A DNA stretch of 64,000 nucleotides from Pristiophorus japonicus (Eukaryota). The position numbers and the translations under genes were made by a program. The DNA is taken from the NCBI RefSeq assembly GCF_044704955.1, contig NC_091988.1, positions 95,914,001 through 95,978,000 of the forward strand, given 5' to 3'. This document shows positions 52,715 to 64,000 of the stretch, piece by piece. Position 1 is the first letter of the stretch, and each line of letters begins with the position of its first letter. The notes below the pieces were generated by a model. That model saw nothing but the letters and a program-made list of their open reading frames with translations. It was not told where the DNA came from and searched no databases.

Positions 52715-54097
52715 AACACCCCGACTGACACAGCACCCGAGATCACCCTGACTGGCACAGCACCCGAGAACACCCCGACTGGCACAGCACTCGAGAACAC
52801 CCCGACTGGCACAGCACCCGAGAACACCCCGACTGGCACAGCACCCGAGAACACCCCGACCGGCACAGCACCCGAGAACACCCCGACCGGCACAGCACCC
52901 GAGATCACCCCGACTGGCACAGCACCCGAGATCACCCCGACTGGCACAGCACCCGAGAACACCCCGACCGACACAGCACCCGAGATCACCCCGACCGACA
53001 CAGCACCCGAGATCACCCCGACCGGCACAGCACCCGAGAACACCACGACCGACACAGCACCCGAGAACACCACGACCGACACAGCACCCGAGAACACCAC
53101 GACCGACACAGCACCCGAGATCACCCCGACCGGCACACCACCCGAGAACACCCCGACCGACACAGCACCCGAGAACACCACGACCGACACAGCACCCGAG
53201 AACACCACGACCGACACAGCACCCGAGATCACCCCGACCGGCACAGCACCCGAGAACACCCCGACTGGCACAGCACCCGAGAACACCCCGACCGACACAG
53301 CACCCGAGAACACCACGACCGACACAGCACCCGAGATCACCCCGACTGGCACAGCACCCGAGAACACCCCGACCGACACAGCACCCGAGAACACCACGAC
53401 CGACACAGCACCCGAGAACACCACGACCGACACAGCACCCGAGATCACCCCGACCGGCACACCACCCGAGAACACCCCGACCGACACAGCACCCGAGATC
53501 ACCCCGACCGGCACACCACCCGAGAACACCACGACCGACACAGCACCCGAGATCACCCCGACCGGCACAGCACCCGAGAACACCACGACCGACACAGCAC
53601 CCGAGATCACCCCGACCGGCACACCACCCGAGAACACCCCGACCGACACAGCACCCGAGATCACCCCGACCGACACAGCACCTGAGATCACCCCGACTGG
53701 CACACCACCCGAGAACACCCGACCGACACAGCACCCGAGAACACCCCGACCGGCACAGCACCCGAGAACACCCCGACCGGCACACCACCCGAGAACACCC
53801 CGACCGGCACACCACCCGAGAACACCCCGACCGGCACACCACCCGAGAACACCCCGACCGGCACAGCACCCGAGAACACCCCGACCGACACAGCACCCGA
53901 GAACACCACGACCGACACAGCAGCCGAGATCACCCCGACCGGCACACCACCCGAGAACACCACGACTGACACAGCAGCCGAGATCACCCCGACTGGCACA
54001 GCACCTGAGATCACCTGCGGCTGGCACAGCACCCGAGATCATCCCGACTGGCACAGCTCCCGAGATCATCCCGACTGGCACAGCTCCCGAGATCACC
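52715..54097. repeat. 27-bp CpG-rich minisatellite, ~50 copies (CACCCCGACCGGCACAGCACCCGAGAA)
   Basis: Directly visible. The long minus-strand ORFs (479 and 403 aa) arise because the unit is nine stop-free codons. Confidence 0.97.
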
Positions 54098-54682
54098 TGC
54101 AGCTGAGCCTCACTAAACTGGAACCACGGTCTTTATAACACACGGCTTGCTATGAATTTTTGGCATCATTTTATTGTAAACGCTACCTGTTTTTAAGATA
54201 CTCTGCATCTGTGATATCTGTACAGTGAACCCTTGTATATATTTTGTATGTAATATCTGAACACAAGGTCATTAAATGTATGCACACACGTGTTGCAGTG
54301 GTGAGGTCCTTCTAACAAAGTCTGTGAGCGCAGGGTGTTGATATGTTAATTAATCACAATCATCATGACAGCAGAGAGACTGGTTGGTCTCAGTGCCCTT
54401 GGGATACAGAGGGACAATTCGCCCTACTTTAATTACCGCTGCTGTACACTATCCAGTGACTGGCGGGAGAGTCTGCATGTGTCGACACGGTGTGAGGCTA
54501 GCATCAGGCTTGCTTGTGATGTCATCTTTAGAATCGCTTGACAATGCTAACTATCCAGGATCACACCTGAAGGATGAGGTGCCAGATTACGACCACTTGT
54601 GTGGTACCGTAACCCAGCATGATAATGGCATCTTCAAGCAAGAGAAGGGGAAAGTGGGAATATAAACATTGTCTATTCTCAC

Positions 54683-57600
54683 TGTTGTGTATGTATATAT
54701 CCTGTACACTCAATGTACAGTTACATAAGATCATTGAATGTATCTTTACACTGTATACACTATGCCTGTACCACCAGAGGGTGCAAATGGTGGAGACCTA
54801 GGGGTCACCTGTCCACTGCAGGTAACCAAGTATAAAAGGGAGCTCACCTTACTGTATCTTCATTCAGGAGCTGCAATAAATGGACTAAGGTCACAACAGT
54901 TCAAGTGCAATAACTTACCTCTTATAGACACAACATTTGGTGATGAGAATACGAATTTCCACACGAAAAATGGCTAACCTTGGCAACTTTCAACAATTTG
55001 CTGATGGTAAAGATTGGGATACCGTTGTGGAAAGGTTAGAACACTACTTCATTGCGAATAACCTGGCTGGGACCACACTGACCTCGCTGGCTGATAAGTG
55101 CCGAGTTATCCTGCTCAGCAGTTGTGGGCCCACTGTTTATGGCCTTGTCAGGGACTTGCCAGAGAAGACGACAATGAAAACGTTCGCGGAGCTCATAACG
55201 TTGATACAGGAACAGTTCAATCCTAAAGAGAGCATCCTAACAGCCAGACAACGGTTCTACACACACCGGTGGCACAAAGGCCAAGAAATCGCAAAATATG
55301 CTGCAGACCTGAGACGATTGGCTGTACTGTGTGATTTTGCCGACCACCTCACCGAAGCACTGAGGTACATATTTGTTATTGGAATCAGCCATGCCCATGA
55401 AGGACTCCTCCACAGGTTGTTCTCTGCGGACATCACGGTCACTCTGCAGAAGGCAATTAACGTGAGCCAAGCGTTCATGGCCTTGGCCTGCGATTCCAGA
55501 AGGATGATGACTCAACCCCAGGACTCTATAATGGCAAGTACAGTGAACCAAATGGCGCCTTTAAGAGGCAAAACTGTGACCCTGAGCCCCACGACCATGA
55601 GTCCGCCGCAGGGGGCCGACCGGCCAGCTCCATGCTGGCGTTGTGGAGGAAATCACAGAGCCCACCAGTGCCGGTACTGAGACTATACTTGCAAAGGCTG
55701 TAACACTAAAGGCCATCTCCAGCGAATGTGTAAACAAAATTTTACTCACCGAGTCGCTGATGGTTGGCCAATCACCCGGCTCCAGCGCTGATGAAGCTGA
55801 AGAGCAAGTCCAGGAGGCAGCTCAGCCTCAGGAAGAGGTATACGGAGTGTTTACCTGCTTCACCGAGAGTTCCATGTTGAAAATAGAAGTTGAAATCAAC
55901 AGTGTTCCAGTCTCGATGGAGGTTGACACGGGCGAGCCAATCGCTGATGAACCAGTCGAGAAACTCTGGGACACTCCCTATCGAACAACCCAAAATGCTC
56001 CCAATCCAGGTGAAGCTGCTCACTTACACAAACGACACCATCCCAGTCGTTGGCAGCATGGATGTCCAGATGTCCTACAGCGGCGCGATGCACAAGTTAC
56101 CTTTGTGGATCGTTGCTGGTGATGGTCCAACGCTGCTAGGAAGAAGATGGATGAAACAAATCCAAATCTGTTGGAGCTGGGAAAGCCTCCAGGCCCCGGC
56201 GATCGACGTCCTATGCAGCCACAAATTTGGATCCATCGCAGCACCTGAAGATCCAACCGTCCAACTCGACTACGCGGCGATGACACAGACCGCACTACCC
56301 AACGGCGAGATGATCCAACCCGAACGACCAGACTTCACCTTCAGGGCTCCTGTGGCAGGACTCCGAAGGAAGAAGATCGATGCAGAAGATAAATTCCCGG
56401 CTTCAGTGGCAGAACCTGGGGAGAAAAGTATCACCTCAGCCTACCTCGTGGAGAGAAAGAAGATGGCGCCCGCACCACGAGGTGAAGCGTCTGAAATCAA
56501 GATGGCCGCAACCAGACCACGATGGGCAGCGTTGAGGGAGCAACACGCGATGCCGAGCAGTGAATTGGATTGGGGTAAAGATTACAAGGCCCTCTTAAAG
56601 AGGACCGGAACCCAGAACTTTTTGTACAGCAATGCCGGTGATACTAATGTAAGAAATGTAATTAACAAATATAAGTATTTAAATGTACCACTGAAAAACG
56701 ATGCCGGTAGAATACGTGGAAAAGATGTAAGTGATGAATACAAGTATCTAAATGTAATATTGTACAGCGATGCCGGTAATATACAGGGAAAATATGTAAT
56801 TGAGGGAAAAGATGTAATTGACAAATGTGAATTAGTACCTGAGTGAGATCAGAGCCAATGTATCATGAGGTAAACGATGGAATAATGTGTGATGCCGGGT
56901 TCAATATGCACGCCGACAAAACCAAGGGCAACCTCCCGTTTGAAGCACCCAGGTCCAGCGGGCCACCCGATCATGTAGCCTGTGCCTCCGGGACCAATGT
57001 GATGCCCCAGGGAGTGTGGCCTCACACAGTGGGAGCATACCCACTGCAGGGCCAGTGATTAGCGGATGGCACAGGCACCACTACTGGCACCCTGCCCCAG
57101 ATTGGCCCTACCTCTCTGGCCATCAGGGCCAGCACTGGGAGCAAGAGGCCAGAACCCTCCAGCCCTCCCGACAGGACCTGGGCTGACCAGGCTCCCACTA
57201 CCGCTGAAGGGCAACAGGGAGACCCTGCAGCCCTCAAAGGAGGACAGGGAGGCTACACATTCCTGTGGCTCTGCCCACCACTGGGCAACGACAAAGGCCC
57301 TGAGACCCAGCCAGGGGAGTGATCTGAACCCACCCAGGTGGCAGGGGCTCAGTGCCACCATCAGACAACCTGGACACAGCCCGGTTACTCTGGAACTAGC
57401 ATCCTCACCCACCTGCACCTACATCCCAGAGGCAAGACTGTAACCTTACCTGTCCTATGTACTTGTTCCACTTCTGCAAGACCCAAACAGTGATGTAACC
57501 AATCTTACTCTTTTTTTTCCATTCTCTGTACATGCAGATGTCAAGCCACACACATGTTCTATGTATGGGGGGGGGGGGGAGAAATGGGGGTTTGTAGCCA

Positions 57601-58096
57601 TGGACACACATGAATCACACCCAGAACCCACTCAAACCCTCATTGCAACTTCCAACCATCCACTGCTGACCATTTTCCAATGTTGTGGCAATAAGGACTT
57701 GGGGATCCACAGGGAGAGAGCCATTCCCAAGCACAGACAAAGTGCAAGGGCTTTGGGCACTCAAGTCGAGGGCCAGAGCACCCAGTGCAAAGGCCAGTGG
57801 CACAAAACTTAGGGGGGAGTGATGTTGTGTATGTATATACCCTGTACACTCAATGTACAGTTACATAAGGCCACTGAATATATCTTTACACTGTATACAA
57901 TATATCTGTACCATCAGAGGGTGCAACTGGTGGAGACCTAGGGGTCACCTGCACACTGCAGGTAACCAAGTATAAAAGGGGGCTCACCTTACTGTAACCT
58001 CATTCAGGAGCTGCAATAAATGGACTAAGGTCACAACAGTTCAAGTGTGATACCTTACCTCGTGGAGTCATTACTAGAGTGCTTACAGACGCAACA
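54683..58096 (+). mobile_element. Gypsy (Mag-like) LTR element 1: gag-protease only, no pol
   Basis: LTRs TG...CA at 54683-54935 and 57823-58096, with TATAAAA and AATAAA. PBS TGGTGATGAG, PPT AGGGGGGAG at 57811-57819, and TSD CTCAC/CTCAT. Confidence 0.92.
54970..56846 (+). pseudogene. Disrupted gag-protease ORF of LTR element 1, with a non-pol C-terminal extension
   Basis: DWDTVVERLEHYFIAN Gag N-terminus; knuckles CWRCGGNHRAHQC and CKGCNTKGHLQRMC; protease MEVDTG and GPTLLGRRW. In-frame TGA at 55678-55680 and later frameshifts. Confidence 0.88.
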
Positions 58097-58229
58097 CTCA
58101 TTATCATCCAGCCACGGCAAAAAATGAAAGTTGATGGAAGCGTGATGGTGCAGTGGTCAGATTGGCACTAAGCTCTAGGTTAGGAGGGCTGGCAGTGATC
58201 CTGTCACTTGACCAATCTGGGTTACAAGG

Positions 58230-58872
58230 AATCTGACACTGACCCGTCTCAAGGTCAGCAGGGTCCAACACTTACCCTGACCAGTCTCAGAGTTAGGAGG
58301 ATCTGACACTGACCAGTCTCTGAGCGATGAGGGTCTGACACTAATCAGCCTCTGGGTTAAGAGAGTCTGATACTGACCAGACTCTGGGTTAAGAGAGTCT
58401 GATACTGATCAGTCTCTGGGTTAAGAGGGTCTGATACTGACCAGTCTCTGGGTTAAGAGGGTCTGATACTGACCAGTCTCTGGGTTAAGAGTGTCTGATA
58501 CTGACCAGTCTCTGGGTTAAGAGTGTCTGACACTGACCATTCTCTGGGTTAAGAGGGTCTGATACTGACCAGTCTCTGGGTTAAGAGAGTCTGATACTGA
58601 CCAGACTCTGGGTTAAGAGAGTCTGATACTGACCAGACTCTGGGTTAAGAGGGTCTGATACTGACCAGTCTCTGGGTTAAGAGGGTCTGATACTGACCAG
58701 TCTCTGGGTTAAGAGTGTCTGATACTGACCAGTCTCTGAGCGATGAGGGTCTGACACTGACCAGTCTCTGGGTTAAGAGAGTCTGATACTGACCAGTCTC
58801 TGGGTTAAGAGGATCTGATACTGACCAGTCTCTGTGTTAAGAGAGTCTGATACTGACCAGTCTCTGGGTTAG
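58230..58872. repeat. 32-bp minisatellite, ~20 copies (GTCTGATACTGACCAGTCTCTGGGTTAAGAGA)
   Basis: Period of 32 (e.g. units at 58461 and 58493), degenerate at the left edge. Confidence 0.95.
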
Positions 58873-58879
58873 GGCTAAC

Positions 58880-60620
58880 ATAAAGGGGAGTCCAAAGGTC
58901 TGTAGGCATATTAATAGTAAACGAGTTGTCAGTGGAGCAGTGGGTCTGATTAGAGTACAACAAGGAGATCTATTAGAGGAGACATTAGGCATATCTGAGG
59001 TACTAAATTAATAATTTGCATCAGTGATGGTGCCAGAGGACTGGAGGATTGCAAATGTCACACCCTTGTTCAAAAAAGGGGAGAGGGCTAGAAACCTGGC
59101 AGTTACAGGCCAGTCAGTTTAACGGTGGTGGGGAAACTCATAGCATCAATAATCTGGGAGAAAGTTAGAAGCCACTTGGACAAGTATGAACTAATGTAGC
59201 AGAGCCAGCATGGATTTGTTAAGGGCAAATCATGTTTAAATTGATTGAGTTTTTTGATGAGGTAATAGAGAGAGTTAATGAGGGCAGTGTTGTTGATGTT
59301 ATGTATATGGACTTTCCAAAGGTGTTTGATACAGTACCACATAATAGGCTTGTTAGCAAAATTGAAGCCCATGGGATAAAAGGGGCAGTGACAGTGTGGA
59401 TACAAAATTAACTAAGGAATAGAAAGCAGATAATTGTGATGAATGGTTGTTTTTGTGACTGGAGGGAGGTATACAGTGGTGTTCCCCTAGGTTCAGTACT
59501 AGGAGCACTGCTGTTTTTGATATACGTTCATGACTTGGACTTGGGGTACAACATTTCTAAATTTGCAGATGACGCAAAACTTGGAAGTGTAGCAAACACT
59601 AAGGAAGATAGTAATAGAACTCCAGAGGAGATAGACTGTTAGAATGGGCGGACATGGCAGATGAAATACAATGCAGAAAAGTGTGAAGTGATACATTTTG
59701 GTAGGGGGAATGAGGGGAGACAATATAAGCTAAATTGTACAATTTTAAATGGGGTGCAAGAACAGGGAATCCTGGGGGTGTCTGTGCACAAATCTTTGAA
59801 AGTGGCAGGACAGGTTAACAAAGCAGTGTACATTTCTGTCTGGCCTAAAAATAAAACGGGGAAGGTGGCTCAACCGTGGCTAACAAGGGAAATTAGGGAT
59901 AGTGTTAAAACCAAGGAAGAGGCATATAAATTGGCCAGAAAAAGCAGCAAACCTGAGGACTGGGAGAAATTTTGAATTCAGCAGAGGAGGACTAAGGGTT
60001 TAATTAGGAGGGGGAAAATAGAGTATGAGAGTAAGCTTGCAAGGAACATAAAAACTGACAGCAAAAGCTTCTACAGATATGTGAATAAAAAAAGGTTAGT
60101 GAAGACAAATGTCGGTCCCTTGCAGTCAGAATCAGGTGAATTTATAATGGGGAACAAAGAAATGGCAGATCAATTGAAAAAATACTTTGGTTCTGTCTTC
60201 CTTAGGGGACTGAGGGTCTAGCGAGAAGGAGGAACTGAAGGAAATCCTTATTAGTCAGGAAATTGTGTTAGGGAAATTGATGGGATTGAAGGCCGATACA
60301 TCCCCAGGGCCTGATAGGCTGCATCCCAGAGTACTTAAGAAAGTGGCCCTAGAAATAGTGGATGCATTGGTCGTCATTTTCCAACATTCGATAGACTCTG
60401 GATCAGTTCCTACGGATTGGAGGGTAGCTAATCTAACCCCACTTTTTAAAAAAGGAGGGAGCGAGAAAACAGGGAATTATAGACCGGTTAGCCTGACATC
60501 GGGAGTGGTGAAAATGTTGGAATCAATTATTAAAGATGTAATAGCAGCGCATTTGGAAAACAGTGACAGGATCGGTCCAAGTCAGCATGGATTTATGAAA
60601 GGGAAATCATGCTTGACAAA
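58880..60620 (+). mobile_element. Two juxtaposed CR1 ORF2 fragments
   Basis: RT motifs GVPLGSVLG and KFADD up to ~59830, then a second fragment with PWLTREI, SPGPDRLHPRVLK, NYRPVSLTS and QHGF. Confidence 0.85.
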
Positions 60621-60836
60621 TAGAAACATAGAAACATAGAAATTTACAGCACAGAAGAAGGCCATTTTGGCCCATCGTGTCTGTGCCGGCCGACAAAGAG
60701 TCGCTCGTCCCTTTGTCAGCAGCCCTAAAGGTTAGATACAAACCCATGAACAATAACGGAAAGGCAAAGAGCACCCAGCCCAACCAGTCCGCCCCACAAC
60801 ACTGCAACACCCCTTATACTAAAAATATCTACACTC

Positions 60837-63612
60837 TGTGGTGTATGTAGCACACAAATCACTGACTCCACACGGTCTGGTGTTAATCTAACTGCTGTGA
60901 CCTTCGTCCTTTATTGAACAGCTCCAGAGTGACTCTCAGGTGTGGTGGTCAGCCTTTTATACTGCCTCTTGCAGGTACTTTCAGGTCTCCCACCACAGCA
61001 CCCTCTGTGGTGTACCATTGTGCTTATTATACATTTAAGGTACCAGGACGATACACACATCAATACATAACATCTTACTTCCCCCCCAGGAGGCAGGACG
61101 ATACACACATCGATAAACATCTCACTCCCCCCCCCACCCCCAAGTCCCGAAGCCGTTGCCTGGGATCTCGACCTTGTTTGTCCAACGGAAGGCAGGTAGG
61201 CATAGACAGTGCGTTTATATGGTACATGTTATCTGGTACAGATGTTGCATCAATGGGTTGCGGGTACACTGAGCAGTTACATTAAATAGTTATTAACTGG
61301 TAAGGGATCCCTGATTTCCTTATTAGCTCTTATCATTAATTGTATTTCATATCCATTATTTTACACAATCAAAGTGACCATTCAGCATTAAAATATTAAT
61401 TCTTATTATAAATCCGTCATCTCACATTAACATAGCTCATTTTAGACTCGCTCTTGTCTTACAAAAGTCACTTTGTGGGGACCACCACGTGGTAAGGCTC
61501 TTTTAAGACTCCCGGGTGCATTTCCTTTTTAAGGCGCCATCTTTGATGCAGCAGGATTCGACGAGGCTTCTCCTTGGGCGCCGCCATCTTTGATGCTCTG
61601 CTGCTCTGGACACGAGGCCGCCGCCATCTTGCTCTCCGCCACTCCGGATGCCCTCCGCTGCCGCAGCCACCGCTCCCCTCCACTGCCACCTGACTTGCTG
61701 CCTCTCCTGTGGCCGTCATCGTCGCTTCTCCGGCGGCCACCGTAGCCGCCTCCCCTGCGGCCGTCGTGGCCTCTCCAGCCGCCGCACTTGCCGCCTCCCC
61801 TGTGGCCTCCGTAGCTGCCTCCTCTGCGGCCACCGTGGCCAGCAACCTCCAGCTGTTGCCGCCGCCCGATTCTCCCTCTGCGTGGGCCCCTCCGATCCGC
61901 CGGCCCTCCTGGATCCCTCGCACCCCGCCCGCAGCGCCCCGCCGGCTCACCGCCCCCCCCCCCCCCACTAGGTCCGCCTCTGCAGGGCTGCTTGCCTGTG
62001 GGTACTGAGGCTGCAGGATCTCTGTGTGAGGTCCGGGCCTGGGGCTTGCTCTGCTTGCCTGTGGGTGGATTGAGGCCGCACGACAGCACCCCGGGGAGCA
62101 GCAGCCTGTGGAGTGATGAAGTCTTCCCAGCTCCCATGGACCGTCCCCATCCACCTCCGGCCGAGGAGTGTCGGCCCATCGCCTGCGATGACCCACAGAG
62201 GTAAACCGTGCATCTCGTCCCCGTGGGATACCTGCACCATCGCTCTGCCAAGAACAGGTATTAGTTCCCTGGTGTAGGTACGCAGCTTCACCGTGACCGG
62301 GACCAGCTTGGGTCGTGCAGCTGGGTTAATCCACAGTTTATCAAAAGTTCTCCGACTCATCAACGATGGACCCGAGCCCGTGTCCACTTCCACACTCACA
62401 GGGACTCTGTTGATTTTTACTTCCCTTATCACTGGGGGCGAATCGTCGGTGCACGTATACAGTCCCAACACGTCATCTTCTTTTGCCTGCTCCTCGCTGA
62501 ACAGTGGATCATCCCCCATCTCCTCAGCCACACGGTGAGTCCGATTTCTTTTACACTTACGCTGAAGGTGGCCTTTCGTGTGGCAGGTATTGCACGTGTA
62601 CTCCGCAAACCTGCACCAGTGAGCCCCATGGCTTCCTCCGCAATGCCAGCATGGTGCTGCTTGATTGGCCCCCCTCAGCGGACTCTGAGTTCCAGGACCC
62701 CGAGGTCCGTGCTCTCTGCCCCGGGCAGAGCCACGTTCTGCAGTTTTGTCCGTGGTGGGCGCTATCCTGTGGACAGTGCCGGCCGGGTTCGAGACTGTGT
62801 GGATCATTTGCTTGGTGCTGCACATCGAGGTCATATATGCCCGGCTGATGGTGATGGCCTTTGTCAGGGTGACTGTGGGTTCCGTGGCCAGCAGCTTGTG
62901 AAGGAGGCCCTTGTGGCCAATCCCCATAACGAAAACGTCCCGCAAAGCCTCGTCAAGGTGTGCGCCAAAATCACACGGCGCCGCGAGTCTCCTGAGGTCC
63001 GCAGCATATTTGGTGATATCCTGGCCCTCAGGTCTGCAGTGATGGTAAAATTTGTATCTGGCCGTGAGGATGCTCTTCTTCGGTTTCAACTGGTCACGAA
63101 TGAGTTCAGTCAGCTCATCGTATGACTTGTCCCTGGCGCTCCCAGGTGCTAGAAAATCCCTGACAAGACAGTAAACCTCATCGCCACAACTGGAGAGCAA
63201 TATCGCCTTACGCTTATCTCTCATTGCGTCCGTGTCCTCCGTCAGGTCGTTTGCTGTGAAGTGGTACTCGAGCCTTTCCGTAAAGGCCTCCCAATCATTG
63301 CCCATGGTAAAATCCTTTTAGCGAGCCCAGAGTAGCCATGGTTGCGTGGAGTTCGTCCGCTTCCTTGTCGCCAATGTGGTGTATGCAGCACACAAATCAC
63401 TGACTCCACACGGTCTGGTGTTAATCTAACTGCTGTGACCTTCATCCTTTATTGTTCAGCTCCAGAGTGACTCTCAGGAGTGGTGGGCAGCCTTTTATAC
63501 TGCCTCTTGCAGGTACTTTCAGGTCTCCCACCACACCGCCCTCTGTGGTGTACCATTATACTTATACATTTAAGGTACCAGGACGATACACACATCAATA
63601 CATAACATCTCA
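60837..63612 (-). mobile_element. Gypsy (Mag-like) LTR element 2: gag-protease only, no pol
   Basis: LTRs at 63375-63612 (5') and 60837-61077 (3'), differing by about 11 substitutions and one 3-bp indel. PBS TGGCGACAAGG, G-rich PPT, and a perfect TSD CACTC at 60832-60836 and 63613-63617. Confidence 0.93.
61968..63305 (-). CDS. Uninterrupted Gag-protease ORF (445 aa) of LTR element 2
   Basis: DWEAFTERLEYHFTAN; CWHCGGSHGAHWC and CNTCHTKGHLQRKC zinc knuckles; aspartic protease VDTGS and GPTLLGRRW. The probable original ATG at 63339 is out of frame by one base. Confidence 0.8.
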   Translation of the reverse strand: MGNDWEAFTERLEYHFTANDLTEDTDAMRDKRKAILLSSCGDEVYCLVRDFLAPGSARDKSYDELTELIRDQLKPKKSILTARYKFYHHCRPEGQDITKYAADLRRLAAPCDFGAHLDEALRDVFVMGIGHKGLLHKLLATEPTVTLTKAITISRAYMTSMCSTKQMIHTVSNPAGTVHRIAPTTDKTAERGSARGREHGPRGPGTQSPLRGANQAAPCWHCGGSHGAHWCRFAEYTCNTCHTKGHLQRKCKRNRTHRVAEEMGDDPLFSEEQAKEDDVLGLYTCTDDSPPVIREVKINRVPVSVEVDTGSGPSLMSRRTFDKLWINPAARPKLVPVTVKLRTYTRELIPVLGRAMVQVSHGDEMHGLPLWVIAGDGPTLLGRRWMGTVHGSWEDFITPQAAAPRGAVVRPQSTHRQAEQAPGPDLTQRSCSLSTHRQAALQRRT

Positions 63613-64000
63613 CACTCCACCCCAACTGGAGCCATGTGATCTCCAGGGAGAGGCAGAATCCAGATAAAAACCCAGGCCAATTTAGGGAGAAAAAATCTGG
63701 GAAAATTCCTCTCCGACCCATCCAGGCGATCGAAACTAGTCCAGGAGATCACCCTAGCCGTATTCTATTCCCTGCAGTACTTACCATTATATCTGCACCG
63801 ACCAACAAAAGGTCTAATCCCAATGACCAGCTCTAGGTCTGTAATCCTGCAGGTTACGGCACTTTAAATGCCCATCCAACCATCTCTTAAAAGTGGTGAG
63901 GGTTTCTGCATCCACCACTCTTCCAGGCAGCGAGTTCCAGATTCCCAAACCCTCTGCATAAAGAAGTCCCCTCTCAAATCCCCTCTAAACCTTCCACCAA

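What the first reader, a model, noticed from the sequence alone, without database searches (positions are those of the whole stretch)
54683..63612. Two distinct, complete LTR elements that keep gag plus protease but replace pol with a repeat/low-complexity tail
Seen: both elements (3.4 kb and 2.8 kb) have paired LTRs, a PBS, a PPT and TSDs, so each integrated as a unit. Both encode Gag with two zinc knuckles and a protease ending GPTLLGRRW. Neither has recognisable RT (no YxDD region), RNase H or integrase. They are clearly different sequences, yet they lose pol at the same point and share KMA-type motifs downstream (GEASEIKMAA versus GEASSNPAASKMAP). Known: paired CX2CX3HX4C/CX2CX4HX4C knuckles and a TGGCGACGAG-type PBS (complementary to the tRNA-Ser(GCT) 3' end) fit Mag-like Gypsy elements, and gag-only non-autonomous elements are described in plants (TR-GAG). 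Inference: a stable lineage of 'Gag-Pro-X' non-autonomous elements that supply their own capsid and protease and borrow RT and integrase in trans.
Basis: partly seen in the sequence, partly recalled or inferred. Interest (0 to 1): 0.7.

Follow-up and report, generated by a model that had tools for sequence, protein, structure and literature searches.

The report
Shark retrotransposons with eroded copying enzymes
These two inserts belong to a clan of at least five high-copy shark jumping-gene families that kept their capsid and protease genes, let their copying enzymes wear down to a still-readable remnant, and likely borrow those enzymes from intact relatives, a way of life described in plants.

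Summary
Both elements are real LTR insertions, each a copy of a family with thousands of look-alikes. Of 80 copies fetched, 67 had both LTRs and none held pol inside. With three more families found here (C, D, E) they form one pol-less clade of Mag-type Gypsy elements, sister to abundant pol-bearing families with the same tRNA-Ser primer site, polypurine tract and related LTRs. Gag-protease stayed under purifying selection after pol was lost (net dN/dS 0.06-0.22 in A). The tail is not new sequence: in family E it aligns to the RT thumb, connection and RNase H of pol (E about 1e-11), and A's tail aligns to E's; the RT catalytic core is deleted and integrase is gone. In A, C, D and E this remnant stays one open frame but is only weakly constrained as protein. 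B's tail could not be traced. 'KMA' is a DNA motif (AAGATGGC, YY1-like), out of frame in B. Similar pol-less families are known in plants; this scan earlier noted a gag-protease-only element elsewhere in this genome. New variant of a known kind; interest 0.5.

The parts
54678..54682 (+). left target-site duplication of element A (CTCAC)
   Evidence: 5-bp duplications at most family copies
54683..54935 (+). element A 5' LTR (21 nt shorter than the 3' LTR near its end)
54938..54950 (+). primer binding site, decayed; family form TGGCGACGAGAAT is complementary to tRNA-Ser(GCT) plus CCA
54970..56150 (+). element A gag (capsid, two zinc knuckles) and aspartic protease; broken in this copy
56151..57399 (+). 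element A tail: eroded pol remnant in the gag frame (RT thumb-derived from about 56310, RNase H-derived about 56870-57050, RNase H-integrase linker-derived about 57107-57200); family stop at 57397
56460..56507 (+). pair of AAGATGGC motifs 39 nt apart (YY1-like; read as KMA)
57811..57822 (+). element A polypurine tract and TGA spacer
57823..58096 (+). element A 3' LTR
58097..58101 (+). right target-site duplication of element A (CTCAT)
60832..60836 (+). target-site duplication of element B (CACTC)
60837..61072 (-). element B 3' LTR
61078..61087 (-). element B polypurine tract (with a 50-nt duplication just upstream)
61088..62150 (-). element B tail: GC-rich, repeat-expanded, origin not traced
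61536..61631 (-). three AAGATGGCG motifs, 40 and 47 nt apart, in different reading frames
61968..63339 (-). element B gag and protease (open 63317-61971 in this copy; break just after the start codon at 63339)
63362..63373 (-). element B primer binding site (TGGCGACAAGGA)
63375..63612 (-). element B 5' LTR (family start at 63607, plus 5 extra nt)
63613..63617 (+). target-site duplication of element B (CACTC)

Best explanation
Both inserts are copies of two high-copy, pol-less families in one clade of Mag-type Gypsy retrotransposons that kept gag and protease under selection, carry a worn-down piece of pol as an in-frame tail, and likely get reverse transcriptase and integrase from pol-bearing sister families by co-assembling into shared particles. 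Shown: anatomy, family size, absence of pol, one clade, selection on gag-protease, pol origin of the tail in E (direct) and A (through E), deletion of about 180 codons holding the RT catalytic core. Inferred: an ancestor lost the RT core and integrase once; its RNA, translated into Gag-protease-tail, is packaged by its own Gag, which explains selection on gag; helper Gag-Pol, made from a single frame, joins the same particle, primes on the shared tRNA-Ser site and integrates the copy with a 5-bp duplication. The tail is most likely kept open and partly conserved for what it does as RNA or DNA (letting ribosomes run to within a few hundred bases of the 3' LTR, and holding a YY1-like motif pair) rather than as a folded enzyme; this last step is about even odds.
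For: First-look candidates in G000: A tail 4761, A gag 5651, B tail 3494, B gag 4375, C tail 5657 (not copy numbers). No pol inside 67 of 67 two-LTR copies among 80 fetched, 34 of them among 40 picked by gag alone. Families A-E one clade, support 100/100 and 99; all 5 pol-bearing elements with an A-like protease end fall in the sister clade. Net dN/dS between A subfamilies: gag-protease 0.06-0.22, off-frame controls 1.0 or above; between families capsid pS 0.47-0.68 against pN 0.12-0.22. E tail against pol: 280-318 aligned residues, 24-25% identity, E 5e-11 and 8e-12, score 200 against shuffle maximum 90; A tail against E tail 31-32% identity, E 1e-29 to 1e-37. One family-wide open frame in A from gag to about 430 nt before the 3' LTR, with about 20 shared stops in each other frame of the tail; 0 of 20000 shuffles open. 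Sister pol families share PBS, PPT and LTR blocks of 65-86% identity and overlap A in LTR age.
Against: A's tail does not match pol directly (score 75-76, within shuffles; hhalign none; best DNA profile hit E 0.03). B's tail matches neither pol nor the other tails beyond chance. Protease constraint is not significant in B (net dN/dS 0.43, 1.08), and family D lacks the end of the protease. No helper with near-identical LTRs was found, only related ones. Copies were the best BLAST hits (20 of 40 listed out of thousands), so rare pol-bearing members could be missed; the pattern test fits 20 of 32 A and 4 of 9 E copies but 1 of 35 B and 0 of 9 D. Tail dN/dS in A is 0.42-0.71, below 1 in two of three comparisons, so some protein-level constraint is not excluded.
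Confidence: 0.82

Rival explanations
1. The tail is a working protein domain: the dead RT-thumb/RNase H remnant acts as an adaptor or decoy that draws helper Pol into the particle or competes with it.
For: Frame kept open across four families at 31-37% protein identity; shared indels inside A's frame are 3 and 24 nt; 16 invariant columns in 14 natural tails; net dN/dS 0.42 and 0.48 in two A comparisons. A neutral model keeps such a frame open in 37 of 5000 runs per lineage at 15% change.
Against: Between families the thumb-derived segment has pS 0.34-0.36 and pN 0.24-0.29 for A, C, E, far from the capsid pattern; no Pfam or PDB match; B thrives with an unrelated-looking tail whose frame varies (motif in frame in 9 of 25 anchored copies).
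Confidence: 0.25
2. A and B are ordinary internal-deletion derivatives of their own, still unsampled, autonomous families and lost pol independently.
For: Independent loss does occur here: a 1.8-kb gag-only insert in L017 groups with a different pol family. Sampling covers under 1.2 Mb of a 5.9-Gb genome.
Against: 0 of 40 gag-picked copies showed pol in place of the tail; five pol-less families group together to the exclusion of all 15 pol-bearing rows; A, C, D, E share derived tail features.
Confidence: 0.07
3. The tails are captured host or foreign sequence that replaced pol.
For: AAGATGGCG motifs resemble mRNA start regions (recalled); an earlier scan note reports host-gene cargo in another gag-protease element of this genome (unchecked). 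B's tail is untraced.
Against: E and, through it, A map collinearly to pol; protein searches with A's tail found only shark gene models that contain the same repeat clan; Rfam nothing above chance.
Confidence: 0.1

Closest known systems
Pol-less Athila families of Arabidopsis (Marco and Marin 2008, PMC2410132; abstract, sections 5 and 9 read)
   Same: Whole gag-defined Gypsy families without pol, long-lived, ORFs under purifying selection, argued to be mobilised in trans by other families.
   Different: Plant, 3-31 copies per family, gag or gag+env; here a vertebrate Mag-type clade, thousands of look-alikes per family, gag+protease plus an in-frame pol remnant from one loss.
TR-GAG elements (Chaparro et al. 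2015, PMC4350172; abstract and Discussion read)
   Same: Under 4 kb, LTRs, PBS, PPT, 5-bp TSD, one ORF with Gag, no close autonomous partner found.
   Different: Defined in plants as Gag only; these keep a protease and 200-430 further codons.
Sugar beet non-autonomous families with GAG/PROT or decayed POL domains (PMC13570524; passages read)
   Same: 28-29 families keep only GAG/PROT, 14-15 keep decayed RT, RH or INT pieces; many have no traceable partner.
   Different: Plant; domain presence reported as patchy within families, whereas here the remnant is a family-wide open frame shared by four families.
Mag clade of Ty3/Gypsy (PMC2577118 and PMC3286476; passages read)
   Same: Two CCHC arrays, tRNA-Ser primer, mostly 5-bp TSD, short LTRs.
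   Different: No usable RT or integrase, so membership cannot be tested on an RT tree for these elements; no named Mag reference was put in the tree.
Mammalian MaLR elements (recalled, no call)
   Same: Vertebrate high-copy LTR elements with a gag-like ORF and no pol.
   Different: ERV-L-derived, not Gypsy; no retained protease or pol remnant as recalled.

Membership tests
Ty3/Gypsy LTR retrotransposon, Mag-type | TG...CA LTRs, PBS, PPT, 5-bp TSD | tested here: met
   B copies: 27 of 35 with at most one TSD mismatch, 3 worse, 5 not scored
Ty3/Gypsy LTR retrotransposon, Mag-type | two CCHC arrays in Gag | tested here: met
   feature from PMC2577118
Ty3/Gypsy LTR retrotransposon, Mag-type | tRNA-Ser (or Leu) primer | tested here: met
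   743 genomic T-loop+CTCGTCG matches; 2 of 4 loci called tRNA-Ser(GCT); feature from PMC3286476
Ty3/Gypsy LTR retrotransposon, Mag-type | pol in PR-RT-RH-IN order in full-length relatives | tested here: met
   relatives P0001-P0005 with RT, RNase H, rve; landmarks in sister copies
Ty3/Gypsy LTR retrotransposon, Mag-type | placement with named Mag elements on an RT tree | not tested
   no named Mag reference sequence was fetched; the Mag label rests on the features above
Autonomous LTR retrotransposon | intact RT, RNase H, integrase | tested here: not met
TR-GAG | under 4 kb with LTR, PBS, PPT, 5-bp TSD | tested here: met
   median 3475 and 2743 nt
TR-GAG | single ORF coding Gag only, no polyprotein domain | tested here: not met
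   protease present and pol-derived tail
Non-autonomous family mobilised in trans | many dispersed copies with the same defect and their own TSDs | tested here: met
Non-autonomous family mobilised in trans | direct proof that a helper supplies RT and integrase | not testable with these tools
   only circumstantial: shared PBS, PPT, LTR blocks, overlapping ages
LTR-mediated retrocopy (captured host mRNA) | internal region matches a host gene | tested here: not met
   for A; for B only Pfam was run, so weaker

The most novel reading that the evidence does not exclude
A vertebrate Gypsy lineage split into a two-part system: pol-less capsid donors supply the surplus Gag that single-frame Gag-Pol helpers cannot make, and their dead RT-thumb/RNase H tail has been turned into a working adaptor that draws helper Pol into their particles, so that the pair drove much of this 5.9-Gb genome's expansion together.
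Probability: 0.15. Interest if true: 0.8.

Novelty: new variant of a known kind. Interest (0 to 1): 0.5.

Why it matters
Selection on a gene of an element that cannot copy itself is direct evidence that Gag favours its own RNA, a point called unsettled for LTR elements (PMC7070016, PMC13558583; passages read). This clade offers thousands of dated copies and a graded series (E, C, A and D, B) of an enzyme gene wearing away while its frame stays open, beside very abundant helpers. It also warns annotators: pieces of these tails already sit inside shark gene models (FSIP1, bile-acid transporter, tetraspanin labels), and RT-based surveys miss such families.

Tried and rejected
Direct profile tests of A, D and B tails against pol gave nothing; only E (strong) and C (weak: score 105 against shuffle maximum 94; hhalign E 0.016) match. 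A profile of the A/C/D/E motif region hit B's motif region at best 8.9 bits against a null maximum of 7.8: inconclusive. AlphaFold on 14 tails: mean pLDDT 37, uninformative, no fold search run. PDB and Pfam on tails: none. The Atlas look-up did not run. Sequence look-ups in earlier findings: nothing. A first tRNA pattern was badly formed and found nothing. No RNA holder listed among sequencing runs; contigs of three runs, one labelled as a second organism, cover all 30 bins of element B but their kind is unknown. The 'TAIL D' block repeats B's output because the D profile was empty; D was redone. The L041 locus looked like a pol-tail recombinant but is a tandem B insertion into a pol-bearing copy. 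Row C2_L077 was labelled pol-less though only a gag fragment is known; it was left out. Within-subfamily S>N was not used, as CpG decay confounds it. A few stops shared by half of the copies in the small C (3 stops, 6 copies), E (2 stops, 8 copies) and D samples were not traced.

Full report
Observation. Element A spans 54683-58096 on the plus strand and element B 60837-63612 on the minus strand. Each has paired TG...CA LTRs, a primer binding site, a polypurine tract and a 5-bp target duplication, with the caveats given under the observation check. Both encode a Gag with two zinc knuckles and an aspartic protease; B's gag-protease aligns to a full-length Gypsy polyprotein at 34% over 402 residues and the match ends exactly where that protein goes on into RT. 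Pfam and tblastn with 850 residues of pol find no RT, RNase H or integrase in either. The primer site is complementary to tRNA-Ser(GCT): 743 genomic matches of a T-loop followed by the complementary end, and 2 of 4 such loci were called tRNA-Ser(GCT).

Families, not accidents. The window lies in a 5.9-Gb genome. DNA searches gave 4761 and 3494 first-look candidates for the protease-tail junctions of A and B, and 5651 and 4375 for their gag regions; only 40 are scored per search, so these are rough sizes. I fetched 80 copies, 20 from each list. 67 had both LTRs and none held pol between them; the 6 gag-picked loci without an LTR pair showed no pol either; pol hits in two tail-picked loci lie in neighbouring elements. 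Median lengths are 3475 and 2743 nt, median LTR divergence 0.073 (A, 32 copies) and 0.035 (B, 35 copies).

A clade. Flanks and protein searches revealed three more pol-less families: C (5657 candidates; 7 of 12 fetched copies with LTR pairs, none with pol inside), D and E. On gag-protease trees, A-E form one clade (100/100 with 41 rows; 99 with 30 rows), B next to E and A next to D, sister to pol-bearing families. A pattern for an A-like protease end followed by RT found 5 elements genome-wide; all 5 fall in the sister clade. That pattern fits A and E but hardly B or D, so it is a partial test. A separate 1.8-kb gag-only insert groups elsewhere, an independent loss.

Selection. In 24 aligned A copies one frame has no stop shared by 40% of copies from the start codon to about 430 nt before the 3' LTR, about 820 codons; the other frames have about 20 shared stops each in the tail alone, and shared indels inside the frame are 3 and 24 nt. 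Net divergence between A subfamilies gives dN/dS 0.06-0.22 for gag-protease (bootstrap P at most 0.015, with or without CpG codons), 1.0 or above in off-frames, and 0.42, 0.71 and 0.48 for the tail (0.45, 0.90, 0.49 without CpG). In B, gag gives 0.27 in two of three comparisons (the third has almost no divergence) and the protease is not significantly constrained. Between families the capsid shows pS 0.47-0.68 against pN 0.12-0.22, the protease 0.58-0.79 against 0.21-0.31, but the thumb-derived tail segment only 0.34-0.36 against 0.24-0.29 among A, C and E. C, D and E also keep one long frame through the tail, apart from a few untraced stops in small samples.

What the tail is. A, C, D and E tails are homologous (A against C, D, E 31-34% identity; DNA profiles E 1e-75 to 1e-129). 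E's tail aligns in one run to pol of the sister clade, from the RT thumb through connection and RNase H to the linker before integrase (280-318 residues, E 5e-11 and 8e-12; score 200 against reversed 76 and shuffle maximum 90; hhalign probability 96% for the RNase H end). DNA profile hits place E's first 146 nt on the post-protease linker and its positions 166-226 about 540 nt further on, so the stretch with the RT catalytic motif is missing (landmarks). C matches weakly in the same register; A and D do not match pol directly. The window's A copy aligns to E over the thumb-derived and linker-derived segments and to C over the RNase H-derived one, so its tail is the same remnant, further worn. 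B's tail, GC-rich and repeat-expanded, matches nothing beyond chance; 8 of 32 B copies have a 618-654-codon frame, but the frame read through the tail differs among copies, and such a tail is stop-poor anyway (160 of 20000 shuffles open).

The KMA motif. All five families carry a pair of A(A/G)ATGGC-type motifs about 39-40 nt apart; B has three, 39-40 and 47 nt apart, so they cannot all be read as KMA, and the first is in frame in only 9 of 25 anchored copies. None was seen on the sense strand of three pol-bearing elements checked. AAGATGGCG is a described YY1 motif (PMC4871433, passages); binding here is untested.

Mechanism. Shown steps are above. Inferred: the element's RNA is translated into Gag-protease-tail and packaged by its own Gag, which is why gag stays under selection in a family that cannot copy itself; RT and integrase come from co-assembled helper Gag-Pol. 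Helpers are plentiful (216434 first-look RT candidates) and appear to make Gag and Pol from one frame. The sister families share the primer site, the GGGGGGAGTGA-TG tract and LTR blocks of 65-86% identity with A-E, whereas the 15 LTRs of the RT-picked set show no match at E under 0.001; sister-family LTR divergence (0.04-0.10) overlaps A's. No partner with near-identical LTRs was found. Why the tail stays open is the open point: chance is unlikely, protein-level constraint is weak, so I favour a role at RNA or DNA level, with an adaptor role as the main rival.

Comparison. Pol-less families under purifying selection are described for Athila (PMC2410132; abstract, sections 5 and 9), Gag-only elements as TR-GAG (PMC4350172; abstract, Discussion), and GAG/PROT or decayed-POL families in sugar beet (PMC13570524; passages; its supplementary tables were not read and may hold closer cases). 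Mag features come from PMC2577118 and PMC3286476 (passages); cis-preference from PMC7070016 and PMC13558583 (passages). Seven library searches listed no paper on such a clade in sharks; Repbase and Dfam could not be searched, so prior naming is not excluded. Close protein relatives were found only among entries labelled with one shark species, which says little, as repeats are usually masked. An earlier scan note (e1-9852668, unchecked) reports a gag-protease-only element with host cargo elsewhere in this genome; it prompted the capture test.

Verdict. Real, well supported as a non-autonomous clade; the tail is eroded pol rather than a new gene for A and untraced for B. New variant of a known kind, interest 0.5.

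Noticed in passing
L017 6612-8423 (G000 C12): A 1.8-kb LTR element with gag and part of a protease but no pol, inserted in an A copy; it groups with a different pol family, so pol was lost at least twice in this genome.
   Followed up: partly
L125-L134 (family D): Family D has an in-frame loss of the last part of the protease yet reached over 100 scored copies with LTR divergence 0.01-0.07; it occurs in 2.6-kb and 2.9-kb forms.
   Followed up: partly
L041 3172-6290: Tandem B dimer sharing one LTR, first unit largely deleted, inserted in the RT of a pol-bearing element.
   Followed up: yes
window 63608-63612: The B copy seems to carry 5 extra nt of PPT-side spacer at its 5' end, perhaps from an unusual end-processing; it sits inside a short interspersed repeat whose empty form shows in reads.
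   Followed up: partly
L097, L101, L105, L106, L109 (family B): A 54-nt unit just after the protease is tandemly expanded in several B copies, in frame.
   Followed up: no
L115, L117, L121 (G000 C13): Three E copies share identical flanks, so they are one insertion duplicated with its surroundings, not independent insertions.
   Followed up: no
window 52715-54097 and 58277-58871: 27-nt (51 copies) and 32-nt (19 copies) minisatellites flank element A; CR1-like LINE fragments lie between A and B (59000-60640; CR1 label recalled from the translation).
   Followed up: no
proteins P0017, P0020, P0023, P0099: Public shark gene models labelled FSIP1, bile-acid cotransporter, tetraspanin-4-like and HABP2-like contain pieces of these elements as predicted exons: annotation artefacts or exonisation.
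   Followed up: no
G000 whole: An RT query drew 216434 first-look candidates, and about 10 of 40 random flanks held Mag-type pol: a very large Gypsy load.
   Followed up: partly
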